Notes: a model not told the origin generated them from the sequence alone. 30,522 nt of DNA from Candidatus Micrarchaeota archaeon CG_4_10_14_0_2_um_filter_60_11 (GCA_002792915.1 PFPF01000020.1:1-30522), one strand, 5' to 3'; numbered from the stretch's first letter, positions 489 to 30,427 are shown. Program-made: numbers and translations.

Positions 489-1023
489 CCTTCAGCCAAA
501 CGCGGTGCTTGGCGGCGTTCTTGAAGAACCCGCCCTTGGCTTTCGCCGGCAACTCGCCGCGCTTCCATAGAATCCAGTTGATTTCGCGGTTCGTGCGCTT
601 CTGCGGCTTGGCGAGCGCGGCGTCCAGCGCCTCCTCGCCCAGGTCGCCTATCACGAGGACGTCCACGTCGCTTTTCTCGCCGTAATCGCCTTTGGCGAAG
701 CTGCCGTAAACGAAGGCGTAATCAACGCCTTCGACACGATTCAAGGCAGCCGCGATTTGCCCTATCACGCCCTCGGTCTTCAGGTAAAGCTGCCTTAATT
801 CCGCAAGGAACGGGCAGGCGGGGTTCGCGCGGAACAAGACGAGGTTGCCCTTGGCTTCGCGCGTCAAGACGCCCATGGCGACCAAATTGTCAAGCTCGCG
901 CTTGGCCTCGAAAGGCGAGACTCCCGCTTGCGCGGCAACGCCCCGCAAGTGCAAGCCGTCTTCGAACAGAACCGCGCCCAACACCTTGACCTCGGACCCC
1001 GACTTCAGCAAAGCTTCCAACAT
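442..1023 (-). CDS. Minimal nucleotidyltransferase (MNT) with N-terminal winged HTH, putative antitoxin partner of HEPN
   Basis: 193 aa. Pol-beta-type NTase signature YGSFAKGDYGEKSDVDVLVIG (GS...D.D). N-terminal wHTH-like segment. Confidence 0.65.
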   Translation of the reverse strand: MLEALLKSGSEVKVLGAVLFEDGLHLRGVAAQAGVSPFEAKRELDNLVAMGVLTREAKGNLVLFRANPACPFLAELRQLYLKTEGVIGQIAAALNRVEGVDYAFVYGSFAKGDYGEKSDVDVLVIGDLGEEALDAALAKPQKRTNREINWILWKRGELPAKAKGGFFKNAAKHRVWLKGDEREFERIAGQGRR

Positions 1024-1061
1024 GTTAAATTTAAGTTAACAATCGTTAATTTAAAGTTAAC
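1024..1061. promoter_or_regulatory. AT-rich direct/palindromic repeat (TTTAAGTTAAC ... TTTAAAGTTAAC) upstream of the MNT-HEPN operon, putative operator plus TATA region
   Basis: Two copies of TTTAA(A)GTTAAC at 1030-1040 and 1050-1061, separated by AATCGTTAA, immediately upstream of the minus-strand MNT start at 1023. Confidence 0.35.
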
Positions 1062-1126
1062 GGTTGCCCTGCCAGCGAATCAGTTCGGCGCGGTTAAAAG
1101 GCGTTCTGGGGGGTGATTGCCGGTGG

Positions 1127-1393
1127 CTAGAAGTATTGCCGGTACCATCGCTCGTAATCCTTGTGGTTTCCCACGAAATAGAACCGGACCGCGTTGGTTT
1201 CGTCGAAAACCCGGTAAACTATGCGTTGTTGCCCGATTTCGTCGACGAAGAAGCGGGCGTTGCCTTTCAAGTGCCTTTTCTCCGGGTTCGAAAGGATTTT
1301 GCTTATTTTCTTTGCGACGCGCTCCTTCGTTTCCTCGTCGAGTTTCCCGTAGTGCTTCGGCCATTCCTCGGTGAAAGCGGGTAGGTAAGGAAT
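1127..1393 (-). CDS. RelE/ParE-family type II toxin (start codon not canonical, coordinates approximate)
   Basis: Manual minus-strand translation: ...YLPAFTEEWPKHYGKLDEETKERVAKKISKILSNPEKRHLKGNARFFVDEIGQQRIVYRVFDETNAVRFYFVGNHKDYERWYRQYF*. Stop codon at 1127-1129. No ATG/GTG/TTG in frame after the upstream stop, only ATT at 1391-1393. Lies directly downstream of the RHH gene. The ORF track missed it. Confidence 0.55.
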   Translation of the reverse strand: MPYLPAFTEEWPKHYGKLDEETKERVAKKISKILSNPEKRHLKGNARFFVDEIGQQRIVYRVFDETNAVRFYFVGNHKDYERWYRQYF

Positions 1394-1400
1394 GGGTGTA

Positions 1401-1643
1401 TCACTTCAAGTGCTTGGCGTGCCGGCCCAGGGCTTGCTCCGCGTTCAGCGTCCTGCTTTTGCCGTTGCTTATGTCCCGGTCTATTGCGTCGAGTTTCCGG
1501 TTGACCATTTCGGTTTCGTTCAAGTAATTATTCCCGAAATCGATGAGCGCCAGGCGGATTGCCTCGGACTGCGAGTTCGCGTAACCCGTTTGGACTATGG
1601 CCTGCACGATTTCCTTGGTCTTGCCCCTCAAAATCACGTTCAT
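1401..1643 (-). CDS. Ribbon-helix-helix antitoxin (RelB/ParD/CopG-like)
   Basis: 80 aa. N-terminal beta-strand then helix (MNVILRGKTKEIVQAIVQTGYANSQSEAIRLAL). Immediately upstream of the RelE-like ORF. Confidence 0.6.
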   Translation of the reverse strand: MNVILRGKTKEIVQAIVQTGYANSQSEAIRLALIDFGNNYLNETEMVNRKLDAIDRDISNGKSRTLNAEQALGRHAKHLK

Positions 1644-1676
1644 TTACAAAACACCAAACAAATATCCAAGTAATGA

Positions 1677-1684
1677 TTTAAATA
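1677..1684 (-). promoter_or_regulatory. TATA-box-like element (TTTAAATA) about 35 nt upstream of the RHH-RelE operon start
   Basis: AT-rich box in the intergenic region above the minus-strand start at 1643. Confidence 0.3.
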
Positions 1685-1705
1685 TGCGCCGTTTATGCTT
1701 CAAAA

Positions 1706-2062
1706 TCAATCATATTCCTTGGTTTTCCGCCTCCTTTGCGGGAAGCGCGTCCGAGTTCGAGACGCCGTTGTCATTGTGTTTTTAGGCCGTTTTTTGTACT
1801 TTTTGTCGAGGAGCTTGTAATCGGGTTCCTCGGCGTTCGCGTAAGCCAAGTGCGGGCAATTTTTTTCCAGGCAAGCGTAATTCGGGGTGTTCTCGCAATA
1901 ACCGGGTTTCCTCGGAGTCCGGTAATTCGAGTCGTAATTCTTGTTTTCGACTTTTTCAAATGAGCCGTTTTTCAGCCGTTTGTAAAGGTACTTGCTTCTT
2001 GTAGTGCTCCACTTGCGCGCGCAATACGCTTCTAGTATGATGTGCGTCCAAACCATAGACAA
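1706..2062 (-). CDS. Hypothetical Lys/Cys-rich small protein (possible zinc-binding) in a lower-GC stretch
   Basis: 118-aa ORF with a C-x6-C-x4-C-x-H cluster. Region 1650-2150 is noticeably AT-richer than its surroundings. No recognisable family. Confidence 0.3.
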   Translation of the reverse strand: MSMVWTHIILEAYCARKWSTTRSKYLYKRLKNGSFEKVENKNYDSNYRTPRKPGYCENTPNYACLEKNCPHLAYANAEEPDYKLLDKKYKKRPKNTMTTASRTRTRFPQRRRKTKEYD

Positions 2063-2117
2063 TCGTTCGCAAACGCGTTTTTTAAGCGGTTCGGGACGTC
2101 GCTTCCAGTGGGAGGTG

Positions 2118-2140
2118 AAAACAAAAAAAACGAAAAAAGA
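2118..2140 (-). terminator. Oligo-T tract (on the minus strand) downstream of the histone-fold gene
   Basis: Plus strand shows A8 and A6 runs at 2123-2138, which are T-runs on the coding (minus) strand just past the stop at 2151. Archaeal oligo-T terminator. Confidence 0.4.
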
Positions 2141-2150
2141 ATTAGACGGC

Positions 2151-2339
2151 TTACAGGTCGTAGGGCATGACGGTCTGGCGCTTGTTCTCCTTCGCGCGCA
2201 CTATCGCCATGTCCAGCTTCTTGGCTACGAGCTCGGAAACCTTGTCGTACGACGCGCCCGAGAAGCGCATGTTCTTCTTCTTGATGTACTCGCCGACGGC
2301 GGACTTGACTGCCAACATTGAAGCCATTCCACTAACCAC
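2151..2339 (-). CDS. Small histone-fold protein (archaeal histone / DUF1931-like)
   Basis: 62 aa. Helix-loop-long-helix pattern AVKSAVGEYIKKK-NMRFSG-ASYDKVSELVAKKLDMAIVRAKENKRQTVMPYDL resembles histone-fold alpha1-L1-alpha2, with an RxT...D C-terminal motif like HMf-type histones. Confidence 0.45.
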   Translation of the reverse strand: MVSGMASMLAVKSAVGEYIKKKNMRFSGASYDKVSELVAKKLDMAIVRAKENKRQTVMPYDL

Positions 2340-2379
2340 CTCTCAAAACGGAACGAAAACGGGTTTTAAAAGCGTTTTC

Positions 2380-2781
2380 TTAGTGCTTCCTGCCGCGGGC
2401 GAGGAGGAGTTCGCGGAGTTCTTTGGACTTCATTTTGAGGATGTCCTCGCGGCTTTCGACGCCTTCCCAAGGTATGCTGAGCTTGACGGCGGCCACTCTT
2501 CCCAAAGGGCTTTCCTGCTCGAAAAAGGGCGCGATTCTGGAGATTTTCTGGAGGAAGCGCCTATGGGCTTCGGCCCTGTCATCGAAATCGTCAGGAGTCT
2601 CGAACTCTACCGGCTTCGTCGAAACGTACTCCAGCGGAATTTCGTGGTAGAGCACCAGTTTTTTGGGTTCCCGCGTGGCTTGAAAATACCAGTTCGGGCC
2701 AGGTATTGCTCCTTCTTGGTGCGCGGCCTCTAGTATGGCCTTGTGCTGCTCCCACTCCAACAAGCCGGGTTTTTCCCGCAT
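2380..2781 (-). CDS. Hypothetical protein
   Basis: 133-aa ORF with normal amino acid composition. No recognisable motif. Confidence 0.4.
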   Translation of the reverse strand: MREKPGLLEWEQHKAILEAAHQEGAIPGPNWYFQATREPKKLVLYHEIPLEYVSTKPVEFETPDDFDDRAEAHRRFLQKISRIAPFFEQESPLGRVAAVKLSIPWEGVESREDILKMKSKELRELLLARGRKH

Positions 2782-4610: not shown

Positions 4611-6047
4611 CTATCCGATTTTTTCGCGCAACTCGGTTATCTTCACGCGCTCCTGCTTGGCAGTGTCGCGGGCGCGGAGAGTAACCGTGCCGTCCTCGAG
4701 CGTCTGGTAGTCCACGGTCACGCAGAAAGGCGTGCCCGCCTCGTCCGCGCGCGCGTACCGTTTTCCAATGCTCCCGCTTTCGTCGTACTCGACGGCCAAG
4801 CCCTTCAGCAAGCCGAAGGCCTCGCGGGCTTTTTCGGCGATTCCATCCTTCTTGACTAGCGGGAAGACGCAGGCGAGCGTGGGCGCGATTGAAGCCTCCA
4901 GTGAAAGAACGGTTTTCTTCTCGCTCTTCTCTTCCTTCTCGTTGAAGGCTTGCGTAAGTATGGCAAACAGGAGTCGGTCGATTCCGCCGGACGGCTCGAT
5001 TACGCGCGGCACGAACTTCTTGCCCAAGCCGTCGCACAGGGACAAATCCTTGCCGGACGCTTTGGCGTGCGAATCAATGTCGAAAGTGCCGCGTTCGGCT
5101 ATGCCCAGCAATTCCTTCCAGCCCCATTCCGCGTAAAGGAACTCGACGTCCCACGTATCCGACGAATAATGCGACAATTCTTTCTTCACGTGCTGGCGCA
5201 CGCGCAAGTCGCGCAGCCCAAGGCCGCGCAGCCAATCAAGGTATTCACCCAGCCAGTATTGCATCCACTTGGACGCGGGAAGCGTGGAAATCTTCGTAAG
5301 CTTGGCTTCGCGCTTTGCCGCCTCGTCCTCGGCGGTCAAAGCGAGCACTTCACCGTCGCGTATTTCGAACGGGCACTCGTCGTTATAGAAGTATTCCAAC
5401 TCGTACTGCGTGAACTCGCGGCACCTGAACACGAATTGGCGCGGCGCGATTTCGTTGCGGAATGCCTTCCCCAGTTGCGCGATTCCGAAAGGCGGCTGTA
5501 GGCGCGCCGCCAACGCGAGCGTCTTGTAGTCCGTAAAGATGAGCTGCGCGGTTTCCGGCCGCAGGTAGGCTTCGGAAGACTCGTCGGCTGTGGCGCCCGC
5601 GTGCGTCTTGAACATCAAATTGAACGGCTCGCCTATTGCCAGCTCGCCCTTGCACTTCGGGCACTTGAGGCTGTGCTTCTTCACGAGTTCGCGCAGCGCT
5701 TCCAGCGACTCGCCCTCGACCTCGGCGCCCAGTTCTTGTTTAATCAGGTGGTCTGCGCGCTCGCGGAACTTGCACTTCTTGCATTCCACAAGCGGGTCGT
5801 TGAACGCGGCAAGGTGCCCGCTGGCTTCCCAGACTTTGCGCGGCGTCAGGACGCAGCCGTCCATTCCGGCAACGTCCTCGCGGTTGCGCACGAAACGCTG
5901 CCACCACGAGTTTTCCACGTTGCGCTTGAGCTGCGCGCCGAGCGGTCCGTAGTTGTAAAACCCGGCGGGCGAGCCGTACAGCTCGCTTGAGGGATAGATT
6001 ACGCGGCGGCGCGCGCAGAGATTGACAACCGAATCGATTTTGTTCAT
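4611..6047 (-). CDS. glyS: Glycyl-tRNA synthetase, archaeal/eukaryal-type class II
   Basis: 478 aa. YPSSELYGSPAGFYNYGPLGAQLKRNV near the N-terminus, Zn-ribbon-like insert CKKCK...CPKCKG, motif 2/3 regions FRNEIAPRQFVFRCREFTQYELEYF, and a C-terminal anticodon-binding domain. Confidence 0.95.
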   Translation of the reverse strand: MNKIDSVVNLCARRRVIYPSSELYGSPAGFYNYGPLGAQLKRNVENSWWQRFVRNREDVAGMDGCVLTPRKVWEASGHLAAFNDPLVECKKCKFRERADHLIKQELGAEVEGESLEALRELVKKHSLKCPKCKGELAIGEPFNLMFKTHAGATADESSEAYLRPETAQLIFTDYKTLALAARLQPPFGIAQLGKAFRNEIAPRQFVFRCREFTQYELEYFYNDECPFEIRDGEVLALTAEDEAAKREAKLTKISTLPASKWMQYWLGEYLDWLRGLGLRDLRVRQHVKKELSHYSSDTWDVEFLYAEWGWKELLGIAERGTFDIDSHAKASGKDLSLCDGLGKKFVPRVIEPSGGIDRLLFAILTQAFNEKEEKSEKKTVLSLEASIAPTLACVFPLVKKDGIAEKAREAFGLLKGLAVEYDESGSIGKRYARADEAGTPFCVTVDYQTLEDGTVTLRARDTAKQERVKITELREKIG

Positions 6048-15050: not shown

Positions 15051-17792
15051 TCACTTGTAGCGCAACAGCGCGCCGAGCCCCTTGAAAGTGGCGTAAAACT
15101 GCGAGCCTTCCGGCGTGTCGCGCGAAATCATTTCGATTGGAACCGCCTTTTCCTCCGCGCGGCCGACTATTGCATTCACCAGGTCGTGCTCGTCCACCAC
15201 CTGCCACTTGCCGCCGCACTCGCACGGTTCGGGGGAACCGGGCTTTTCCTGCAGCTTGACGCGCTCTTTCCCGCAGTTGCCGCACTTTTGTTTTATTTGC
15301 CACAATTCCATGCCTTCGGTCACGAGTAGCCGCTCGATTTGCCCGCGTTCGAGCGCGGACTGGATTTCCGCCAGGCCGTACAATGAGAGGCCGCCGGTCG
15401 AGACGCGCTTCATGAATTCGTCCAAGAGCTTCTTCTCCTTGACCGCCTCCTGGTCCGAGATGATTTCCGAGGACTTTTCCAGCACTTCGCGGATTCCGAA
15501 CTCGTCAGTGTAACCCGTGTCCACCACGCCGAGAATCTTGAGCTGGTAGTTGAACGGCGCCATTTTGACGAAGTCGTGCTTCGCCGGGCCGGGCCCGCCG
15601 ACTATCACGCCCAGGAAATTCTTTAAGCCGACGAACGCGTCCATGGCAGCGCCTATGCGCTTGTAATAGAACTCGACGCCTTCCACGTGCAGGCGGTCGT
15701 AACGGTTCGCGCTGTTATGAACTACGACGCCATTCGCTATGAAGTTGCGGGTTTCCGGAACGCTCAAATCATAAAACGCGCCCTCGACCGAACAAGGCTC
15801 CTTTTTCGCGAGTTTCGCAGGAATCACTTGAGCACAAGCAATTCTTTCGATGACGTCGGCTATCGCCTCGGCTTTCCCGGCGAGGTCACTTCCCTCCTCG
15901 CGCAACAGAACCGCACGCTTCTTGAAAACGGGCAAAACTCGCTCGGCGAAGAGGCGGCGGCTCAGCGCGCGGGCGCCGTTCAAGAACGACGGCAAGCCTT
16001 TGAAATCCGCGTTCTTCAAGCCCACCTCGCGCGCCAACCTTTTTACGAGCAAGCCGTTCACGGGCGCCTGGTCGCAGCGGTTCACACTGCACTTCGCCGA
16101 GATTATTTTCAAGAGGCCACCCTGTTTACGCGAACCCGAAAAGCCTATGTTAGAAGCGAATCGCGCCAGCGAAGCGGAATCGCTCACCTCAAGGTAGTAT
16201 TGCTGTTTTTTGCCGCTTTTTTTCGGCGCGCAGGAAGCGATTATTCCAAAGCGCAGCAAGAGGAGGCGCGCGGTTTTGACCGCGCCCTCGTTGGCCATAG
16301 CCAAGGAAATGCGCCCGCTTGAGGCTGAGCCTTCCGCGTCAAACAAGCCGCGGAGGAAGCCAGCCACGACATCGTTCGGCGAACGCATCACCTTTTCGGG
16401 CACCTGCTTGTCTGCAAGCTCGGGAAACGCCTTCGCGAACAATTCGACGAGCCATTTGTTGTAAGCCGTCGTCTCGAAACACTCACCCCACCCGGACGCG
16501 CGCTTTTTGATGCGCGTGGAAGCGCCGAAAACCGCGCCAATCATCGCTTCATAGTGCTTCGCGACTTCAAGGTCGCCCTCGTAAAAGCGCAGGCGGTTTA
16601 CGTCAAAACAACCGTCACCCAAGAAATAGCCGGTTATTTGCGCCAGTTCTGGCGTGACTTCGGCGGGAAAACAAACGAGTTTCCACTTCTCCGCGTACGC
16701 GCGAACGAAAGCGTTCGCATCAAAGCCGTAGTGCCCCAAGAGCCGTTCGAGGCGTGCTTGGCCGAAGTTTGCGTCGCCGCGCTCCAACTCCGAAACGGAA
16801 GCCTGGTCGAGTCCAGCAGCAGCCGCGGCCTCGCGCTGCAGTTCGCCCAGCGACTTGCGCTTTTCGACGAGTTTAATCCGTCCTTCCTGCGAGAGCACGG
16901 CGGTGCCTTCTGGGGCGACGGCCTCGGTCAGGACGCGTTCGGCGGGCGAAGGAAGTTTTGAAGCGAGCAGCAAAAAGTCGCCTTCCTTCAAATCTTCGGC
17001 GCGCTTTTCTTCGAAGCCGTTTTCGGTTACCGTGAAGAAGACGTGTTCGGGGGTCACCTTCAAAGTTGAAACGGGGTTGCGCGTTTTCAACAAAAGCGCT
17101 TTCTGTGATTGCCGCACCGTTACCTTGTCGCACGCCGCGTCCGCCGTCTTCAACGACTTAAAATCCAAGGCTGCCAAGGAACGGCCTTCCACGGCGTTCC
17201 TTATCGGAAGCACGCTGCCGTCCGAGAAGCAAACCAACTCGTTTTCGTGAATGCACTGCCCGCCCTTGTGCACCTTCTGGTGCGCCGTGGACTCCATGCG
17301 CTTGACCACGCGGATTTGCTTGCCCTTGAGCACGGCAACCGTGGCCTCCTTCCCATCCATCACGACGAGCCCGTACTGCCCGCCGACGTCGATGAGCTCT
17401 TCCAGCGGCTCGGTAACGAACACCGACTCGCAGCGGTAGAACTGCACGGCGAGCGGCATGGGCGGCTCGATTGAGAAAAGCTCGTAATCCGTCTTGCCCT
17501 CGACTTGGCTCACGTTGCCCGCGAAAACCGCCATGCCGTTTGCGGGAGGCGTCCTGAAGTTCTTGAGGAAAGCCATGATGCGCTCGAGCGCCGCCTGCAC
17601 GTTCTTCTGGGTGGACTTGCTCTTGATGTTGGAAGCCTGCCCGTACTCGTCGCGCAGCTTGGCGACGATGTCGCTGATTTGGTAGCCGGGCGTGATGTAC
17701 ACGCTAATCAATTCAGTCCCGCGCCCGCGGTATTTCTTCAAGGCTTCGACTTGCTTCTTGAAGTCAAAACGAGCCTTCGACTCCTCCGACAT
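15051..17792 (-). CDS. prf1: Peptide chain release factor aRF1 (eRF1 homolog) interrupted by an intein at the GGQ motif
   Basis: NIKS motif (GQASNIKSKSTQKNV). GGQ is followed directly by CIHENEL... (intein) ...VVHN-SANRYDRL, which resumes aRF1 domain 2/3. Extein total is about 401 aa. Confidence 0.9.
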   Translation of the reverse strand: MSEESKARFDFKKQVEALKKYRGRGTELISVYITPGYQISDIVAKLRDEYGQASNIKSKSTQKNVQAALERIMAFLKNFRTPPANGMAVFAGNVSQVEGKTDYELFSIEPPMPLAVQFYRCESVFVTEPLEELIDVGGQYGLVVMDGKEATVAVLKGKQIRVVKRMESTAHQKVHKGGQCIHENELVCFSDGSVLPIRNAVEGRSLAALDFKSLKTADAACDKVTVRQSQKALLLKTRNPVSTLKVTPEHVFFTVTENGFEEKRAEDLKEGDFLLLASKLPSPAERVLTEAVAPEGTAVLSQEGRIKLVEKRKSLGELQREAAAAAGLDQASVSELERGDANFGQARLERLLGHYGFDANAFVRAYAEKWKLVCFPAEVTPELAQITGYFLGDGCFDVNRLRFYEGDLEVAKHYEAMIGAVFGASTRIKKRASGWGECFETTAYNKWLVELFAKAFPELADKQVPEKVMRSPNDVVAGFLRGLFDAEGSASSGRISLAMANEGAVKTARLLLLRFGIIASCAPKKSGKKQQYYLEVSDSASLARFASNIGFSGSRKQGGLLKIISAKCSVNRCDQAPVNGLLVKRLAREVGLKNADFKGLPSFLNGARALSRRLFAERVLPVFKKRAVLLREEGSDLAGKAEAIADVIERIACAQVIPAKLAKKEPCSVEGAFYDLSVPETRNFIANGVVVHNSANRYDRLHVEGVEFYYKRIGAAMDAFVGLKNFLGVIVGGPGPAKHDFVKMAPFNYQLKILGVVDTGYTDEFGIREVLEKSSEIISDQEAVKEKKLLDEFMKRVSTGGLSLYGLAEIQSALERGQIERLLVTEGMELWQIKQKCGNCGKERVKLQEKPGSPEPCECGGKWQVVDEHDLVNAIVGRAEEKAVPIEMISRDTPEGSQFYATFKGLGALLRYK
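15714..17249 (-). mobile_element. Intein (512 aa) with LAGLIDADG homing-endonuclease domain, inserted after GGQ of aRF1
   Basis: N-terminal Cys (codon at 17247-17249). Block B VTPEHVFFTV, DOD motifs ITGYFLGDGCFD and GFLRGLFDAEGSAS, C-terminal FIANGVVVHN followed by extein Ser. Internal HTH-like segment LGELQREAAAAAGLDQASVSELERG. Confidence 0.8.
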
Positions 17793-24244: not shown

Positions 24245-24299
24245 CGTTTTATACTCGCGGGCGATTAAGCCAGCGCAATCCTTGGTGGGATTAGGAATA

Positions 24300-27200
24300 A
24301 TGGCGAGCGAGGTTGACGCATTCGAGGAATTCTTCTCCAACGCCTACCGCCAGGAATTGAACGACTTGGCGTCCGGCTATCCCAAACAGCGCAGCCTGAA
24401 CGCGGACTGGGCGCTGCTATCCAAGTACAACCCGGAACTCGCGGACGCTTTCCTGAAAAACCCGGACGCCAACCTCAAGTTCGCGGAAGAGGCGGCGTCG
24501 CGCGCAATACTCGCGCCGGAAGGCAAGACGGTCAGGCCGCACGTGCGGTTCTTCAACCTCCCGCAAACCGCGGACGTGAGCGTGGAATACCTTGGGGCCG
24601 AGCAGCTGGACAAGCTCAGCCGCGTGGAAGGCGTCGTATCCTGGGTGACGGACATCCGGCCCTTGATGAAAGTCGCGCTGTGGGAGTGCATCCACTGCGA
24701 ACAGACCTTCAAGACCGTCAATGAGAAGGGAAAACTACGCAAGCCCGCGATTTGCAAGTGCGGGCGCCGCGACTTCAGGCTGGTCGAGCAGTCCAGCGAC
24801 TTCATCAACATGCAGCGCGCCCAAATGCAGGAACCCGTTGAAAAATTGCGGGGCAACCGCCCGTCCAGCCAAATCGAGGTCTGGATGGAGGACGACTTGA
24901 CGAACCAAATCGCGCCCGGGCAAAAAGTGATAGTCACGGGCATACTCCGCCTGCGCCCGAGCAAGGACAAGAGGAGCGAGCGCGGCGTTTACGAGAAATT
25001 CCTGGACGCGCAGCATTTGCACAAAATCGAGCGCGAGTTCGAGGAAATCGTGATTACGAAAGAGGAGGAAAAAGAGCTGCACGAAATCACCAAGCGGCCC
25101 AAGCTCTTCGAGGACGTGGCGCAAAGCATCGCGCCCAGCATCCGCGGCCACAACGAGCTCAAGATGGCGATTGCATTGCAGCTGTTCGGCGGAACCGCGA
25201 ACAAGGTGCTGCCCGACGGCGAGCAAATCCGCCCGGACATCCACGTATTGTTAATCGGCGACCCCGGCTGCATCATAGGCGACGAACGCGTGGCCCTCGG
25301 CAACGGCGCGATAGTCAAGATTCAAGAATTGGGGGAAACGCACCTGCAGGAAATAAGCCAGCCTTTGCTCACCGGGCAGGGTTACAAGCGCGCAACCGCC
25401 GAACGCTTTCACATTTACCGCAGCCAGCCCGTAATCGAGGTCGTCACCGAGTCGGGCAAGAGCATCAAGGGCACTTTCAACCACCCGTTGCTCGTGGTCA
25501 ACGGCATGAAACGCGATTGGAAGCGGCTGGACGAAATCATGCCCGGCGAACGCGTCGCCGTATCGGCCTGGATTCCGTGCACCATAACCGCGCCGGTCAA
25601 GACCGGTTGGAAGCCCGTCGAACACCGCTTCGGGCCGCGCTCGAAAGCCAAACTGCCGCAGACGCTGGACGCGGAAACCGCCGCGTTTCTGGGCTACGTG
25701 GCTGGCGACGGATGGGTGACGCGCACTCGCGTCGCGTTCGACGTGAACTCGGAGGAACAGGACTTGATTCCCGCCTTGACGCGAATCGCCAGGAAAAAAT
25801 TCGGTTTGGAACCGAAAGTCAGGCGCGAACAACGGCCAGGCAAAAAGCCGATGACGGTCATAGACCTCCACAGCGTGGACGTTGCGGCAAACCTGCAATT
25901 CCTGCGCGAAAAACGCGTGCCCGGCATCGTAATGCGTTCGGGCAACAAGGTTGCCGCCGCTTTCCTATCGTGGCTGTTCGAAGCCGACGGCTGCGTCTTC
26001 TCGAAGGGCCGCGGCAAGCGCGCGATTCAATTCAAATCCTCGGAAATCGAGTTCCTGCGCGACGCGCAAACGCTCTTGCTTCGCTTCGGCGTGCACTCGC
26101 GCGTAAACGGCAACAACCTGGCGATTCGCCGCGCGGGCTCAATCCGCAAGTTCGCGAAAAGCATAGGCTTCCAGTCCGCCAAAAAGAAGGCGCGGCTCGC
26201 GGAACTCGTTGCCGCCTGCAGCAGCCTGCAACACGAGCGCGGAAAAGAGTTGAGCGAGCGCGTGGTTTCAGCCAAACCCGCGGGCGTAGCCGACGTTTTC
26301 GACGTAGAAGTGCCTTCAGCCAAGCGCTTCATCGCCAACGGCATCATTTCGCACAACACGGCGAAATCCACCATTTTGGAATACGTCAGCCACTTGGCGC
26401 CCAAGAGCGTGTTCGTCTCGGGCGGCGCGGCTTCCGGCGTCGGCATGACCGCCTCCGCGGAAAAGGACAAGGACGGCGAAGGCTGGATTTTGAAGGCCGG
26501 CGCAATGGTGCTCGCCAACGGCGGCATCGCAATAATCGACGAGTTCGACAAGATGCAGGACGAGGACAGGGGCTCTATTCACGAGGCGATGGAACAGCAG
26601 AAAATCAGCGTTGCCAAGGCGGGAATAGTCACGCAGTTCTCGGCGCGGACCGCGGTTTTGGCCGCGGCGAACCCCAAGGAAGGCAGGTTCGACCCCAACA
26701 CGCCGCCGGCCGGGCAATTCAACATTTCCCCCGCGCTGTTGAGCCGCTTCGACTTGATTTTCGCAATCAAGGACGTAATCGACGAAAAACGCGACCGCGA
26801 CATGGCCGAGCACATCTTGGCGGGCCACCGCTTTGCTTCCCAAAAAGAGGCGCCGCCCGAAGGCCACCCGATCCTGCCGCGAATCGTGCCCGACACGCTG
26901 CGCAAGTACATCGCTTATGCCAGGCGCACCGCGCACCCCATATTGACGGACGAAGCCATGGAAAAAATCAAGGAATTCTACGTGGACCTCCGCCAAATCG
27001 GCATGAAGGAGAACACTTTCCCGATTACCGCCCGCCAAATCGAGGGAATAATCCGGCTGGCCGAAGCCTCCGCGAAAATGCGGTTGAGCGACCGCGTGGA
27101 AGTGCAGGACACGGAACGGGCGATTAACCTGGTCAAGTTCGTGCTCGAGGCGGTTTACGTGGACAAGACGACCGGCAAGCTGGACTCGGACGTGATTAAC

Positions 27201-27434
27201 ATCGGAAAACCCAAGTCGCGGATTGACAAGCTGCACTCGATGATGCGCATAATCAACGACTTGTCGACGAAGACGGACCTGGTGTCCAAGGATGACGCGG
27301 TGCGCGCGGCGAACGAGTTCGGCATCGACGAGACGACCGCCATCCGCCTCTTGAGCGAGCTGGAGCGCCAAGGCGACTTGTACAGCCCCCAGGCCGGCTT
27401 CATCCGTCCCACCTCAAAGCGGGATAGGGCGTGA
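24300..27434 (+). CDS. mcm: MCM replicative helicase interrupted by an intein in the Walker A (P-loop)
   Basis: Zn-finger CIHCEQTF...CKCG, Walker A split as HVLLIGDPG|C...HN|TAKSTILEY, Walker B IAIIDEFDKM, arginine finger SRFDLIF. Extein about 687 aa. The track start is TTG 24282. ATG 24300 is preferred. Confidence 0.95.
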   Translation: MASEVDAFEEFFSNAYRQELNDLASGYPKQRSLNADWALLSKYNPELADAFLKNPDANLKFAEEAASRAILAPEGKTVRPHVRFFNLPQTADVSVEYLGAEQLDKLSRVEGVVSWVTDIRPLMKVALWECIHCEQTFKTVNEKGKLRKPAICKCGRRDFRLVEQSSDFINMQRAQMQEPVEKLRGNRPSSQIEVWMEDDLTNQIAPGQKVIVTGILRLRPSKDKRSERGVYEKFLDAQHLHKIEREFEEIVITKEEEKELHEITKRPKLFEDVAQSIAPSIRGHNELKMAIALQLFGGTANKVLPDGEQIRPDIHVLLIGDPGCIIGDERVALGNGAIVKIQELGETHLQEISQPLLTGQGYKRATAERFHIYRSQPVIEVVTESGKSIKGTFNHPLLVVNGMKRDWKRLDEIMPGERVAVSAWIPCTITAPVKTGWKPVEHRFGPRSKAKLPQTLDAETAAFLGYVAGDGWVTRTRVAFDVNSEEQDLIPALTRIARKKFGLEPKVRREQRPGKKPMTVIDLHSVDVAANLQFLREKRVPGIVMRSGNKVAAAFLSWLFEADGCVFSKGRGKRAIQFKSSEIEFLRDAQTLLLRFGVHSRVNGNNLAIRRAGSIRKFAKSIGFQSAKKKARLAELVAACSSLQHERGKELSERVVSAKPAGVADVFDVEVPSAKRFIANGIISHNTAKSTILEYVSHLAPKSVFVSGGAASGVGMTASAEKDKDGEGWILKAGAMVLANGGIAIIDEFDKMQDEDRGSIHEAMEQQKISVAKAGIVTQFSARTAVLAAANPKEGRFDPNTPPAGQFNISPALLSRFDLIFAIKDVIDEKRDRDMAEHILAGHRFASQKEAPPEGHPILPRIVPDTLRKYIAYARRTAHPILTDEAMEKIKEFYVDLRQIGMKENTFPITARQIEGIIRLAEASAKMRLSDRVEVQDTERAINLVKFVLEAVYVDKTTGKLDSDVINIGKPKSRIDKLHSMMRIINDLSTKTDLVSKDDAVRAANEFGIDETTAIRLLSELERQGDLYSPQAGFIRPTSKRDRA
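25269..26357 (+). mobile_element. Intein (363 aa) with LAGLIDADG homing endonuclease, in the MCM P-loop (GDPG/TAKS site)
   Basis: CIIGDERVALGNG (block A), TFNHPLLVV (block B), FLGYVAGDGWV and WLFEADGCVF (DOD motifs), C-terminal FIANGIISHN then extein Thr. Confidence 0.85.
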
Positions 27435-27494
27435 AACACCGGCAGGCATAAGCATTAAAAGCCGCCAAAAATAGCTAAATTGTAGGGTTAAAAA

Positions 27495-28022
27495 ATGGAG
27501 TTCGAACAATTGGAGAAACTGGCGTTCGAAGCCGAAACTTCAGTAAACGCAGATATAACCTCTGGTAAAATAACTCCTGCCACTATCGATCAATTCAAAA
27601 CACTTCATGAAGGGATGATGGCAGCGGCAGATGAGTTTTATACCACTCTTCAACACAACCTCACCGCTCAAATTATAGCTTATGGCGCCTCAGAAACAAC
27701 TGCAAAGTTATGCAAAGGTATCTCCGAAAATTTGAAGTCGGCTAAAAATAGAGGGGATAATCCTATTGCCGCCGAACGCCTAGTTGAACGAAAATATTTG
27801 TTTTACTTACAGTTAGTTATATCCGGCCTTAAAATAACTCATAAAACTAAAGCAATTTCTAATGAAAATTATAATTTGATAAACGACTCTTTGCGCACAT
27901 TAGTTAGACTAGCGGATGAAGATAATATTTACCGCCCAGAATTAACTGAAAATGAAGCTGTTGAAACCGCAGTAGCTAATGCAATTAATGCGGTCGAACC
28001 AGAAATTGACCAGCATGACTAA
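27495..28022 (+). CDS. Hypothetical alpha-helical protein, first gene of the AT-rich island
   Basis: 175 aa. Codon usage and GC content differ sharply from the rest of the window. The stop overlaps the next start in an ATGACTAA arrangement. Confidence 0.5.
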   Translation: MEFEQLEKLAFEAETSVNADITSGKITPATIDQFKTLHEGMMAAADEFYTTLQHNLTAQIIAYGASETTAKLCKGISENLKSAKNRGDNPIAAERLVERKYLFYLQLVISGLKITHKTKAISNENYNLINDSLRTLVRLADEDNIYRPELTENEAVETAVANAINAVEPEIDQHD

Positions 28023-28827
28023 AACCTCTTTTTTGTTTTTGGATAGTAACATAATTCTAGGCGCAGCTCAAGAGAAACTCAAGGACTACTTAAAAATCGA
28101 AGTTCCGCGAGCGGGTTCACTAATTCAACCAAATGAATATCATCGCTATTCGCTTGATTTAATTGAAAAAAGTGGCCACGAGCAGTATTTGGAACGATTC
28201 ACCACATACACTGTAAAAATAGAAGTCAACAAGCTAGTCAGCGATCCGGAAATAATAGAAAAGAAAATAGTTTCCAAGATTTGGAACACTGCTGCGGTAA
28301 GTGGTTTGTCAGAGGATGATAAGAAAATAATAATGCCCATAATTTACCGTGTTTTTTTCTTGAAACTACCCGGGTTGGCTATTGACTTGCTAAATCATTT
28401 GAGCTCTAAGTCAGTTGAAGAAAATGAGCGAAAACAAGCGCTAGATGAACTGAAAACTAAAGTTTTCATTCCAATTTTCAGACGCAAGGGATTACTTAAA
28501 CAACATTTAGAGCTTTCGGGCCAAGAACATTTATTCAGATATGAACAAAACGAATACCAGACTTTGTTCTATGTCTTTGAGCGTTTTGGTAACTGGGATC
28601 AAAATAGGGATGTAAAAATATTAGCCGAAGCTATTTGCTGCTTTAGACGATTTAAAGAGCAATATAAAGAAACGCCAAATTTCTATTTTGTTTCAAACGA
28701 CAGATTGTTCCGAGCCAATAGGGTTAATGGGGGCAAACCATATCTAGAAATAATAAACGCAGTATATAGCAACTTTGAAATAAGTTTATGCGCTCCTAAG
28801 CATGCCATTGAACAACTTAATTTATAG
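28015..28827 (+). CDS. Hypothetical protein with PIN-like nuclease signature, second gene of the AT-rich island
   Basis: Start at MTKTSFLFLDSNIILGAAQ, a first-strand Asp like PIN vlDtnvli. Later DVKILAEAICC (D..ilA.A) and FYFVSNDRLF (t.D..f) resemble the 3rd and 4th PIN acidic motifs, with a long insertion between. The track start at 27979 is less likely. Confidence 0.45.
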   Translation: MTKTSFLFLDSNIILGAAQEKLKDYLKIEVPRAGSLIQPNEYHRYSLDLIEKSGHEQYLERFTTYTVKIEVNKLVSDPEIIEKKIVSKIWNTAAVSGLSEDDKKIIMPIIYRVFFLKLPGLAIDLLNHLSSKSVEENERKQALDELKTKVFIPIFRRKGLLKQHLELSGQEHLFRYEQNEYQTLFYVFERFGNWDQNRDVKILAEAICCFRRFKEQYKETPNFYFVSNDRLFRANRVNGGKPYLEIINAVYSNFEISLCAPKHAIEQLNL

Positions 28828-28955
28828 ACCCAAACACGCGCGTACCCAAATCCCAAGTTTTTTAAATAAGGGGAGCCGTAGTTATGGTAACTGCTTATCC
28901 CGCAGTCACTACCGTCGCGCGCTTGCGCGCCCCGCGTAGGAGGGATTGAAACGAA

Positions 28956-29591
28956 ATGGCTATTGACAGGAAAGGCTTCACGGAAGCCATAGGCAACTGC
29001 CTCGCGGAAAACAAGGGCAAACGCAAGTTCCAGCAGAGCGTCGATTTGGCGATTGGGTTTACAAGCGACGTGGACTTCAAGAAGCCTGATAATCGCTTGA
29101 ATCTGACGCTCGTCCTGCCGCACGCCCCGAGGAAGATTCCGGTGCTGGTTTACGCGGAAGGCGCGCCTGCCACGGAAGCCAAGAAGCACGCGGATTTGGT
29201 TTTGAGCGCCGCGGAAATTTCCGAGTACGCGAAGGACCCCAAAAAGGCCAAATCGCTCATCAATTACAACTCGCTCGCCACGCCGCAATTGATGGCTTCG
29301 GTGGGCAAGGCGCTCGGAAAATACCTCCGCGGTAACATTCCGACGGTTTTGCCGCCCAACTTCAACGTGGCTGACGCCATAGAGCGCAGCCGCAGGACGA
29401 TTTCAATCAAGACCAAGGGCAAGGCGCTGCCGGCGGCGCACTGCATCATCGGCAACGAGTCCATGGCCGCGGAGGAAATCGCGGAAAACGCCCGCGTTGT
29501 CATCGACGCTTTGATGAAGAAGTTCAACGAGCACCAGCTCAAGTCGGTCTTCGTGAAGACGACGATGGGCAAGCCGGTCAGGGTGAAGTAA
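28956..29591 (+). CDS. rpl1: 50S ribosomal protein L1 (uL1)
   Basis: 211 aa. FQQSVDLAIGFTSDVDFKKPDNRLNLTLVLPH typical of L1. AGGAGGG Shine-Dalgarno motif 8 nt upstream. Confidence 0.95.
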   Translation: MAIDRKGFTEAIGNCLAENKGKRKFQQSVDLAIGFTSDVDFKKPDNRLNLTLVLPHAPRKIPVLVYAEGAPATEAKKHADLVLSAAEISEYAKDPKKAKSLINYNSLATPQLMASVGKALGKYLRGNIPTVLPPNFNVADAIERSRRTISIKTKGKALPAAHCIIGNESMAAEEIAENARVVIDALMKKFNEHQLKSVFVKTTMGKPVRVK

Positions 29592-29593
29592 AA

Positions 29594-30427
29594 ATGGGCA
29601 TTACTCGCGAAAAGAAGGAAGAGCTCGTCAAGCGCATTGCCGGGGACTTGAAGAAGTACCCCGTAATCGGCGTCGCCTCGATAGAGGGCCTGCCGGGCAA
29701 GCAGTACGGCAGCATCAAGAAGAAGGTTTCAAGCAAGGCGAGCATTAGCGCCACGCGCCTGACTTTGATGGGGCGCGCGATTGACGAGTCCGGCAGGAAG
29801 GAGCTGCAGGAACTCAAGCAGTACTTCGGCAACGCGACCGTGCTCGTGTGCACGGACGCGGACGCCTTCTCGCTTTACAGGCTGTTCAAGCAGAACAAGT
29901 CCAAGACGATTGCGAAGGCGGGACAAATTGCGCCGTTCGACATCATCGTGCCCGCGGGCGAAACCGGCCTAGCGCCCGGACCCATCCTGACCGAACTAAA
30001 GCTGGCCAAGGTTGACGCACGCATACAGGGGCCAAAGGTAGTCATCGCGAGGGATTCGACGGTAGCCAAAAAGGGCGACGCGATAACCGGGCCCGCGGCG
30101 TCAATCCTCGCCAAGCTGGGCGTGGAGCCGTTCGAAATCGGGTTCGACGTCAAGGCGGTTTGGGACCACGGCACGATGTACATGGGCGAAGTGCTCAACA
30201 TCGACGAGGAAGGCATACTCAACGACTTGAGGAACGCCCACGCGGGCGCCTTGAACCTGTGCGTTTACGCGGAAGTGTACAACGAGGCGAGCGCGCCGTT
30301 CATCGTCGCCAAGGCCGCACGCGAGGCGAACGCACTGCAAAAGGTGCTGGAAGCGGTTAAAACTCCTGAAAACAAGAAAGAAGCGAAAGCCGAGCCTGCC
30401 GAGTCTGGGCAGGCGGAGCAGAAGTGA
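29594..30427 (+). CDS. rpl10: 50S ribosomal protein L10 / acidic phosphoprotein P0 (uL10)
   Basis: 277 aa. Starts 2 nt after the L1 stop. N-terminal L10 fold and C-terminal Ala/Glu-rich tail. Confidence 0.9.
   Translation: MGITREKKEELVKRIAGDLKKYPVIGVASIEGLPGKQYGSIKKKVSSKASISATRLTLMGRAIDESGRKELQELKQYFGNATVLVCTDADAFSLYRLFKQNKSKTIAKAGQIAPFDIIVPAGETGLAPGPILTELKLAKVDARIQGPKVVIARDSTVAKKGDAITGPAASILAKLGVEPFEIGFDVKAVWDHGTMYMGEVLNIDEEGILNDLRNAHAGALNLCVYAEVYNEASAPFIVAKAAREANALQKVLEAVKTPENKKEAKAEPAESGQAEQK

What the first reader, a model, noticed from the sequence alone, without database searches (positions are those of the whole stretch)
27435..28870. Sharply AT-rich 1.4-kb island with a two-gene overlapping operon (helical protein plus PIN-like protein) inserted between mcm and the L1-P0-P1 ribosomal operon
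Composition drops abruptly to roughly 35% GC right after the mcm stop at 27434 and returns to more than 60% GC at the L1 leader near 28880. The two ORFs are translationally coupled (ATGACTAA overlap at 28015-28022), a hallmark of toxin-antitoxin, abortive-infection and defence pairs. The second protein carries PIN-like acidic motifs (FLFLDSNIIL; DVKILAEAI; FYFVSNDRLF) with a large unexplained insertion. The first is an uncharacterised all-helical protein that could be its regulator or antitoxin. The usual archaeal L11 gene upstream of L1 is absent, and the island occupies that position. I recognise no described family for either protein, so this is the best candidate for a horizontally acquired, undescribed two-component nuclease-based module.
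Basis: partly seen in the sequence, partly recalled or inferred. Interest (0 to 1): 0.75.

Follow-up and report, generated by a model that had tools for sequence, protein, structure and literature searches.

The report
Mobile PIN-nuclease gene pair in DPANN archaea
A 1.4-kb AT-rich insert between the mcm and ribosomal L1 genes of a Micrarchaeota genome carries a very rare two-gene cassette, an acidic helical protein followed by a PIN-fold nuclease with a large insertion, that looks like a new toxin-antitoxin-type module moving between DPANN archaea.

Summary
Window 27435-28870 has GC 0.373, against 0.599 +/- 0.027 elsewhere (z about -8). It holds two same-strand genes, A (27495-28022, 175 aa) and B (28015-28827, 270 aa), overlapping in ATGACTAA.

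No Pfam, NCBIfam, PADLOC, PHROG or PDB sequence match exists for either protein. Exhaustive searches of 1.8-5.8 billion proteins find only about 12 lineages, all apparently DPANN archaea. In every case where the contig allows, A lies directly upstream of B, and the two co-evolve (r = 0.92). A is acidic and B mostly basic.

In all lineages the pair is AT-richer than its flanks, five of them GC-rich hosts, at different insertion sites and often beside restriction-modification or transposase genes.

Best reading: a horizontally mobile, VapBC-like toxin-antitoxin or defence module built from two undescribed families. A's role is inferred, not shown.

The claim that the island replaces L11 is not supported, because L11 is not upstream of L1 in Micrarchaeota generally.

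The parts
27435..27494 (+). Upstream spacer of the cassette. It is AT-rich and has TATA-like elements: ATTAAAA at 27454-27460 and AAAAATA at 27467-27473, which is -28 from the A start. This is the likely own promoter, giving a leaderless or short-leader transcript.
   Evidence: Sequence. TATA-like scan. The L001 copy has TTTTATA at -33 in a 38-nt spacer inside GC-rich DNA. Promoter function is inferred.
27495..28022 (+). Gene A: 175-aa acidic (pI 4.8), all-helical protein of an undescribed family. It is the proposed cognate partner (antitoxin or inhibitor) of B.
   Evidence: ORF. No family hits. Homologs sit directly upstream of every B homolog. pI 4.6-5.8 in nine lineages. The model is all-helix but has low confidence, pLDDT 47.
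28015..28022 (+). ATGACTAA: the B start codon overlaps the A stop codon by 8 nt, consistent with translational coupling.
   Evidence: The identical ATGACTAA junction is in L001. Other lineages show a 1-nt overlap, direct abutment, or gaps of 8-24 nt.
28015..28827 (+). Gene B: 270-aa PIN-fold (VapC-like) predicted metal-dependent nuclease of an undescribed family. Proposed catalytic residues are D10 (28042-28044), E70 (28222-28224), D199 (28609-28611) and S227/D229 (28693-28701).
28246..28599 (+). Helical region of B (about residues 78-195) beyond the ~130-residue PIN core. It includes a long helical hairpin (136-191) between strand 3 and the D199 helix. Family-invariant residues in it are D102, D144 and E180-Y181.
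28828..28870 (+). Downstream spacer with the T-run and TATA-like stretch TTTTTTAAATAA (28858-28869). This is the probable end of the cassette transcript and/or the TATA box of the L1 operon. GC returns to host level after about 28880.
   Evidence: Sequence, composition. No Rfam match in 27300-29100. Terminator or promoter role is inferred.

Best explanation
The island is a horizontally acquired, self-contained two-gene cassette of the toxin-antitoxin type. Both genes are transcribed from the cassette's own TATA-type promoter and are translationally linked.

B is a VapC-like PIN-domain, Mg2+/Mn2+-dependent endonuclease, most likely an RNase. Its active site is formed by D10, E70, D199 and S227/D229, and a helical insertion of about 120 residues probably shapes substrate or partner binding.

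A is an acidic all-helical protein made in fixed proportion with B. It most likely binds and neutralises B. Release or loss of A, through stress, infection or loss of the cassette, would free the nuclease to cut RNA and arrest the cell.

The cassette circulates among DPANN archaea, both AT-rich Nanoarchaeia-type genomes and GC-rich Micrarchaeota-type genomes. It lands in intergenic sites and in defence or mobile islands.

Shown here: the composition anomaly, the operon structure, the PIN fold and conserved catalytic residues, strict co-conservation and co-evolution of A and B, rarity, and variable genomic location.

Inferred: nuclease activity, RNA as substrate, A as inhibitor, toxicity, and the transfer mechanism.
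For: - Composition: GC 0.373 against 0.599 +/- 0.027. GC3 is 0.32 and 0.36 against 0.75.
- The same cassette is AT-richer than its flanks in all 12 lineages, including five GC-rich hosts with different neighbours: mcm|L1, DEAD helicase|506-aa ORF, ?|RIO1, GatB/E-like gene, and ABC transporter.
- The acidic residues sit where Matelska et al. 2017 (PMC5499597) place them for the VapC-like group: after strand 1, in the helix after strand 2, at the N-terminus of the crossover helix, and after strand 4 with a Ser. They are conserved in 9 lineages.
- Operon: A lies upstream of B on the same strand in every lineage. Spacing runs from an 8-nt overlap to a 24-nt gap.
- A and B pairwise identities correlate: r = 0.92, Mantel p about 6e-4.
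- A is acidic (pI 4.6-5.8) and B mostly basic (pI 6.3-8.9).
- Neighbourhoods include Mtase+ResIII, a type IIG-like Mtase, TaqI_C, PDDEXK, Fic, HNH and DDE transposases.
- B is frameshifted in two lineages, which fits the decay often seen in toxin genes.
- Patchy, extremely rare distribution: 6 B clusters among 1.84 billion representatives and 8 A clusters among 5.8 billion.
Against: - A is about twice the size of canonical VapB antitoxins. It has no detectable DNA-binding domain, and its model is unreliable at pLDDT 47.
- No operator-like palindrome is conserved upstream.
- A population variant (L003) has a 60-bp in-frame deletion in A that removes family-invariant residues while B stays intact. 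If real, this is awkward for an essential antitoxin.
- The PIN assignment rests on a moderate-confidence model built from 3 sequences. There is no sequence-level support, even after removing the insertion.
- The first acidic residue is Glu instead of Asp in some members.
- No toxicity, binding or cleavage data exist.
- No integrase, att sites or flanking repeats explain mobility, and the cassette was not found on viral contigs.
Confidence: 0.55

Rival explanations
1. A dedicated antiviral or conflict (abortive-infection type) system rather than a simple addiction module. A would be a sensor or regulator that holds the PIN nuclease B inactive until an invader-derived or symbiosis-derived trigger releases it.
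For: Several copies sit next to restriction-modification genes, PDDEXK or HNH nucleases and transposases. A is large for an antitoxin (175-194 aa) and as well conserved as B, with mean pairwise identity 0.35 against 0.37. It has a strongly conserved internal motif, G-x-NPIAAER. B carries an extra conserved helical domain.
Against: No match to any PADLOC model. In the window, L001, L002 and L103 the cassette sits alone among housekeeping genes, not in a defence island. No sensor-type domain is recognisable in A. With sequence data alone this reading cannot be separated from the toxin-antitoxin reading.
Confidence: 0.22
2. A two-subunit RNA-processing enzyme with a cellular substrate, for example a HARP-like protein-only RNase P or another tRNA/rRNA maturation nuclease. 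A would be the substrate-binding subunit, acquired as an accessory metabolic function.
Confidence: 0.08
3. A selfish DNA element whose PIN-like protein acts on DNA. It would be a homing or insertion nuclease that promotes the cassette's own spread into intergenic sites, with A as a DNA-binding or targeting partner.
For: The cassette is only about 1.4 kb with very short flanks. It is found at different intergenic sites without an integrase. The host genome tolerates homing elements: inteins with LAGLIDADG domains sit in mcm and aRF1. The PIN-like superfamily includes DNA nucleases of the FEN-like group (PMC5499597).
Against: The fold is closest to VapC-type RNases, and FEN or Exo1 hits are marginal. 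There are no terminal repeats, target-site duplications or conserved insertion-site sequence. No multiple copies per contig were seen. The populations sampled carry the cassette at a fixed site.
Confidence: 0.05
4. Not foreign at all. The genes would be native, and their low GC would reflect gene-specific constraints such as amino-acid composition or selection for low expression through rare codons.
For: The pair is also somewhat AT-richer than its flanks in hosts that are already AT-rich, 0.26-0.31 against 0.32-0.41. This could indicate an intrinsic bias.
Against: GC3, which is largely free of protein constraints, is 0.30-0.46 against 0.67-0.87 in flanking genes. The location differs in every lineage. 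The pair is absent from 80 other Micrarchaeota L1 neighbourhoods and from nearly all sequenced DPANN genomes.
Confidence: 0.03

Closest known systems
VapBC type II toxin-antitoxin systems (VapC = PIN-domain RNase, PF01850 / COG1487 group; VapB antitoxin)
   Different: No sequence-level match to any PIN Pfam or NCBIfam model or to any PDB VapC. B is about twice VapC length, with a conserved helical insertion of about 120 residues. A is 175-194 aa, against about 70-90 for VapB, and has no recognisable AbrB, RHH, PhD or HTH DNA-binding domain. The overlap is 8 nt (ATGACTAA) rather than ATGA. So far it is found only in DPANN-type archaeal contigs.
HARP / PIN_5 minimal protein-only RNase P (Aquifex, Hydrogenobacter, Halorhodospira)
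   Different: Structural score is lower than for VapC. There is no PIN_5 sequence match. HARPs are single genes of about 190 aa with a housekeeping role, whereas B is 270-288 aa, always paired with A, rare and mobile.
PcrIIC1, the Cas9-associated PIN protein (PDB 8wmm chain G)
   Different: It is 134 aa, has no insertion, and works with type II-C Cas9. No cas genes or CRISPR arrays were seen near any A-B cassette.
Predicted PIN-toxin families with atypical partners in Matelska et al. 2017 (e.g. DUF4411, PIN_14 and PIN_15 multi-component TA systems; DUF4935 with an extra C-terminal region)
   Same: These are VapC-group PIN domains predicted to be toxins from operon context, some with extra domains and non-canonical partner proteins.
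   Different: None of their Pfam models matches B or A. Their partners are HTH, DUF955 or PUA-HTH proteins, not a 6-helix acidic protein like A.

Membership tests
PIN domain-like superfamily, VapC-like group | Alpha/beta/alpha fold with a central parallel beta-sheet, superposable on solved PIN domains | tested here: met
PIN domain-like superfamily, VapC-like group | Invariant Asp at the end of strand S1 | tested here: met
   D10 follows predicted strand 5-9. The position is D in 6 and E in 2 of the 8 full-length members (LFLDSN, FFETS, FLESS). It is acidic throughout but not strictly Asp.
PIN domain-like superfamily, VapC-like group | Catalytic Glu on the extra helix immediately after strand S2 (criterion from PMC5499597) | tested here: met
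   E70 is invariant in 9 sequences and lies in helix 65-76, directly after strand 59-64. Placement is by predicted secondary structure, since coordinates could not be inspected.
PIN domain-like superfamily, VapC-like group | Carboxylate at the N-terminus of the crossover helix H4 (D-x-x-I-L-A-x-A type motif) | tested here: met
   D199 is invariant and lies at the start of helix 198-216. The motif D-[VLF]-x-I-[LI]-[AS]-E-A is conserved.
PIN domain-like superfamily, VapC-like group | Asp after strand S4, supplemented by Ser/Thr ([ST]-x-D) | tested here: met
   S227 and D229 are invariant, directly after strand 222-226. The motif is F-[YFH]-F-[VI]-S-[NC]-D.
PIN domain-like superfamily, VapC-like group | Sequence-profile match to a curated PIN family (PF01850 or other PIN_x models) | tested here: not met
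   No Pfam or NCBIfam hit at E <= 10 for any of 9 members. No PDB PIN hit with family profiles, even with the insertion deleted.
PIN domain-like superfamily, VapC-like group | Metal-dependent nuclease activity | not testable with these tools
   Requires biochemistry.
Type II toxin-antitoxin system (VapBC-like) | [quoted passage not shown] | tested here: met
   A is upstream of B on the same strand in all lineages. Spacing is an 8-nt overlap (window, L001), a 1-nt overlap (L094), abutting (L002), or gaps of 8-24 nt in the others. Co-transcription itself was not tested.
Type II toxin-antitoxin system (VapBC-like) | [quoted passage not shown] | tested here: not met
   A is 175-194 aa. No DNA-binding or antitoxin domain appears in Pfam, NCBIfam, PADLOC, PHROGs or PDB profiles. 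The model is six helices at pLDDT 47, so the fold is undetermined. A divergent DNA-binding domain cannot be excluded.
Type II toxin-antitoxin system (VapBC-like) | Toxin inhibits growth and the antitoxin neutralises it by direct binding | not testable with these tools
   Indirect support only: co-evolution r = 0.92 and opposite charges.
Type II toxin-antitoxin system (VapBC-like) | Patchy, horizontally mobile distribution | tested here: met
   About 12 lineages only. Insertion sites differ. GC is below the flanks in every lineage.
HARP / PIN_5 protein-only RNase P | PIN_5 (PF08745) sequence signature; stand-alone gene of about 190 aa; housekeeping distribution | tested here: not met
Catalogued anti-phage defence systems (PADLOC-DB v2) | Match of a component to a PADLOC model | tested here: not met
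   No hit for the window proteins. Only single-member marginal hits appeared: Csx1 at E 0.0012 for one B homolog and AbiN at E 0.024 for one A homolog.

The most novel reading that the evidence does not exclude
A-B is not a classical addiction module. It would be a previously unrecognised DPANN-specific conflict or defence system. The large conserved helical partner A would act as a sensor or gate for an insertion-bearing PIN nuclease. The 1.4-kb cassette would move between DPANN phyla (Nanoarchaeia-type and Micrarchaeota-type genomes) by an integrase-free route, possibly tied to the episymbiotic lifestyle or to unknown DPANN viruses.
Probability: 0.2. Interest if true: 0.65.

Novelty: new variant of a known kind. 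Interest (0 to 1): 0.42.

Why it matters
DPANN archaea have tiny genomes full of orphan genes, and their mobile elements, viruses and defence repertoire are poorly known. This cassette defines two new protein families. One is a PIN nuclease with a conserved helical insertion of about 120 residues. The other is a 6-helix acidic partner. Neither is visible to current family databases, and they behave as a single mobile unit.

The cassette gives a clean, compact marker of gene flow between compositionally very different DPANN lineages. It is also a small, testable candidate for a new toxin-antitoxin or defence pair. If A proves to be an antitoxin, it would be a new antitoxin class for PIN toxins. 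If the insertion determines the target, it would bear on how insertions tune PIN substrate choice, which Matelska et al. 2017 flagged as an open question.

It is not a fundamentally new kind of system. PIN-based two-gene modules are abundant in archaea.

Tried and rejected
- Flanking direct or inverted repeats and integration scars: only short chance-level matches, for example a 10-nt imperfect inverted repeat at 27445 and 28892. Nothing is conserved between the window, L001 and L002 borders.
- Empty-site allele: all ten population contigs and L003 carry the island. The nearest other Micrarchaeota L1 locus (L014, 69% identity) has only 70 nt upstream, and the rest are not syntenic with mcm. 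No empty site could be shown.
- L11 displacement: rejected. A tblastn probe finds L11 in only 5 of 80 Micrarchaeota L1 loci, about 4 kb downstream and never upstream. My first regex test was too strict and is disregarded.
- Viral origin: three IMG/VR scans and a BFVD fold search gave nothing significant.
- The first metagenome scan found nothing. The second found 4 loci.
- Rfam on 27300-29100: no RNA family, including no L1-leader family.
- Structure of A: the model has pLDDT 47 and is unusable for fold search.
- Sequence-level PIN evidence: family profiles, with and without the insertion, against PDB gave only noise such as ArsR and GTP cyclohydrolase.
- The weak Actin, DUF3294 and phrog_37562 hits of A are not shared by other family members and were dismissed.
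- Operator palindromes upstream of A: none conserved.

Full report
**Source.** The window comes from a GC-rich (about 60%) DPANN archaeon. Protein A is identical to 'hypothetical protein COX86_01455, Candidatus Micrarchaeota archaeon CG_4_10_14_0_2_um_filter_60', and B to COX86_01460 on a 30,522-bp contig.

**1. Observation.**
- GC in 200-bp windows falls from 0.55-0.62 to 0.34-0.43 right after the mcm stop at 27434. It recovers to 0.50-0.58 from about 28850.
- Interval 27435-28870 has GC 0.373. The 524 equal-length windows elsewhere average 0.599 (sd 0.027, minimum 0.497), so the interval is about 8 sd low.
- Third-position GC is 0.32 for A and 0.36 for B, against 0.747 +/- 0.109 for 28 other ORFs.
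- A is 27495-28022 (175 aa). B runs from the ATG at 28015 to 28827 (270 aa). They overlap in ATGACTAA.
- The start at 28015, rather than the longer ORF from 27979, is supported by conservation of the N-terminus and of the same ATGACTAA junction in a 55%-identical homolog.
- L1 (28956-29591) and P0 (29594-30427) follow.

**2. What B is.**
- No Pfam, NCBIfam, PADLOC or PHROG model matches B or any of its homologs.
- Family profiles do not hit any PDB sequence, even when the insertion is deleted.
- An AlphaFold2 model from a 3-sequence alignment is moderately confident (pLDDT 69.8, pTM 0.69). It shows five strands alternating with helices.
- Foldseek is weaker (best E 0.045), but its top hits are also PIN-like: HARP RNase P, PAE0151 and VapC.
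- Only about 129 of 270 residues align to VapC. The rest is helical, including a long, low-confidence hairpin at 136-191.
- In an alignment of nine lineages at 25-57% identity, the acidic residues fall where Matelska et al. 2017 place them for the VapC-like group (PMC5499597):
  - D10 (D or E) after strand 1.
  - E70 in the helix after strand 2.
  - D199 at the N-terminus of the next core helix, in the motif D-x-x-I-L-A-E-A.
  - S227-x-D229 after strand 4, in the motif F-x-F-V-S-N-D.
- B is therefore a PIN-fold, probably active, VapC-like nuclease of a sequence family not yet described, carrying a conserved insertion with invariants D102, D144 and E180-Y181.

**3. What A is.**
- A has no significant match anywhere.
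- Its model is six helices at pLDDT 47, too poor for fold comparison.
- It is consistently acidic (pI 4.6-5.8), whereas B is mostly basic (pI 6.3-8.9).
- Its best-conserved motifs are Q-I-x-A-[FY]-G-A-x-x-T-T, G-x-N-P-I-A-A-E-R and I-N-[DE]-S.

**4. Distribution and linkage.**
- A word-indexed search of 5.8 billion proteins found 3 clusters each for A and B.
- An exhaustive HMMER scan of 1.84 billion representatives with the B profile found 6.
- A profile search for A found 8.
- A metagenome scan added two loci.
- This gives about 12 lineages in total. On every contig that extends far enough, an A homolog (176-194 aa; BLASTP E 1e-23 to 1e-63 between lineages) lies immediately upstream of a B homolog on the same strand.
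- Spacing ranges from an 8-nt overlap to a 24-nt gap.
- Pairwise identities of A and B across eight lineages correlate with r = 0.92 (Mantel p about 6e-4), and their mean divergence is similar. The two genes are inherited and evolve as one unit.

**5. Foreignness and mobility.**
- In all lineages the pair has lower GC than its flanks:

| Locus | Pair GC | Flank GC |
|---|---|---|
| window | 0.37 | 0.60 |
| L001 | 0.45 | 0.62 |
| L002 | 0.37 | 0.51 |
| L103 | 0.33 | 0.53 |
| L106 | 0.36 | 0.54 |
| AT-rich hosts | 0.26-0.32 | 0.32-0.42 |

- One AT-rich host is annotated Candidatus Nanoarchaeia.
- The insertion context differs every time:
  - mcm|L1 in the window.
  - DEAD helicase|unknown ORF in L001.
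  - Upstream of RIO1 in L002.
  - Next to a GatB/E-like gene in L103.
  - After an ABC transporter in L106.
  - After a Mtase+ResIII pair in L107.
  - Beside an 818-aa type IIG-like Mtase, a PDDEXK gene and a DDE transposase in L096.
  - After a TaqI_C protein in L099/L104.
  - Near Fic and a DDE transposase in L094.
  - Near an HNH gene in L111.
- The pair is absent from 80 other Micrarchaeota L1 neighbourhoods.
- The three copies closest to the window's (50-57% identity) all sit in hosts more GC-rich than the cassette (L001 0.62, L002 about 0.51), at different sites and still AT-rich. This argues for repeated acquisition from an AT-rich pool rather than one old, ameliorated insertion. That is an inference.
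- The cassette carries a TATA-like element about 28-33 nt upstream of the A start, even where it is embedded in GC-rich DNA (window, L001). It therefore probably brings its own promoter.
- No integrase, terminal repeats or target duplications were found, and it is not on IMG/VR viral contigs. The transfer mechanism is unknown.

**6. Mechanism.**
- The best-supported reading is a VapBC-like toxin-antitoxin type module, with B as a metal-dependent PIN endoribonuclease and A as a co-translated acidic partner that binds and neutralises it.
- The evidence is the fold, the catalytic residues, the operon layout, the charge complementarity, the co-evolution, the mobility, the defence-island neighbours, and the occasional decay of B. 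B is split by frameshifts in L103 and, at an identical G6 run, in two independent assemblies L102 and L110.
- Four points count against a textbook VapBC.
  - A is twice the size of VapB and has no visible DNA-binding domain.
  - No conserved operator was found.
  - B has a large insertion.
  - One population variant (L003) has a clean 60-bp in-frame deletion in A that removes invariant residues while B is intact.
- Rivals are a sensor-effector defence system (not separable by sequence alone), a HARP-like RNA-processing enzyme, a selfish DNA-nuclease cassette, and native genes with odd composition. The report sections weigh each.

**7. The L11 argument.**
- A tblastn probe detects L11 (51-55% identity) in only 5 of 80 Micrarchaeota L1 loci. 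In each it lies about 4 kb downstream of L1. It is never directly upstream, and the upstream neighbours are variable.
- Absence of L11 upstream of L1 is therefore the norm in this phylum and says nothing about the island.

**8. Comparison and novelty.**
- Functionally the module works most like VapBC.
- Membership of the PIN-like superfamily (VapC-like group) is supported by fold and active-site layout but not by any sequence model.
- Membership of canonical VapBC fails on the antitoxin architecture.
- I found no paper describing this family.
- I rate it a new variant of a known kind: two new families forming a PIN-based two-gene module restricted, so far, to DPANN archaea.
- Interest is moderate. 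A specialist would not be astonished by another archaeal PIN module. The extreme rarity, the insertion-bearing PIN, the unusual partner and the clear inter-lineage transfer make it a worthwhile small experimental target.

Noticed in passing
window 27633-27692 (gene A); L003 1-1905: A contig from the same population (99.9% identical) has a clean 60-bp in-frame deletion in A. It removes EFYTTLQHNLTAQIIAYGAS, including family-invariant Q59 and G64, while B stays intact. It could be a real genotype or an assembly artefact. If real, it bears on whether A is an essential antitoxin.
   Followed up: partly
window 25269-26357 (within mcm, 24282-27434, + strand): The MCM helicase gene is interrupted by a 363-aa intein (CIIGDE...ISHN|T) with a LAGLIDADG homing-endonuclease domain.
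   Followed up: partly
window 15051-17792 (- strand): The aRF1/eRF1 release-factor gene also carries an intein with a LAGLIDADG domain. It is inserted immediately after the catalytic GGQ motif (...HKGGQ|CIHEN...VVVHN|SANRY). An aRF1 intein is also present in the unrelated AT-rich host contig L096.
   Followed up: no
window 1001-2500: A second, milder low-GC patch (0.46-0.53 against about 0.60) holds several small ORFs of 93-188 aa with no Pfam hits and GC3 of 0.56-0.68. It may be another acquired or fast-evolving segment.
   Followed up: partly
L102 about 1700-1712 and L110 about 4824-4836: In this lineage B is split by a frameshift at a G6 homopolymer (AAAGGGGGGTAGTAG); one more G would restore the frame. 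The identical break occurs in two independent assemblies. This suggests a real pseudogene or a slippage-prone tract. L103 also has a frameshifted B.
   Followed up: partly
L020, L021, L022, L035, L052 (Micrarchaeota L1 loci): Where L11 is detectable near L1 in Micrarchaeota, it lies about 4 kb downstream on the same strand. This differs from the classical archaeal L11-L1-L10-L12 order. In 75 of 80 loci it is not within the fetched flanks at all.
   Followed up: partly
window 28567: A single T/C polymorphism in B (Phe to Leu) separates two groups of otherwise identical population contigs. L005-L010 and L012 each differ from the window by one mismatch across 26901-29600, and L003 carries T>C at 28567.
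   Followed up: no
L107 143-5463; L096 9134-11590; L099 6282-7133: Restriction-modification genes lie directly beside the cassette in three AT-rich lineages. These are an 836-aa N6_N4 Mtase plus a 936-aa ResIII helicase, an 818-aa Mtase/NmeDI_C fusion, and a 283-aa TaqI_C specificity-domain protein. Whether this is functional linkage or just defence-island clustering is open.
   Followed up: no
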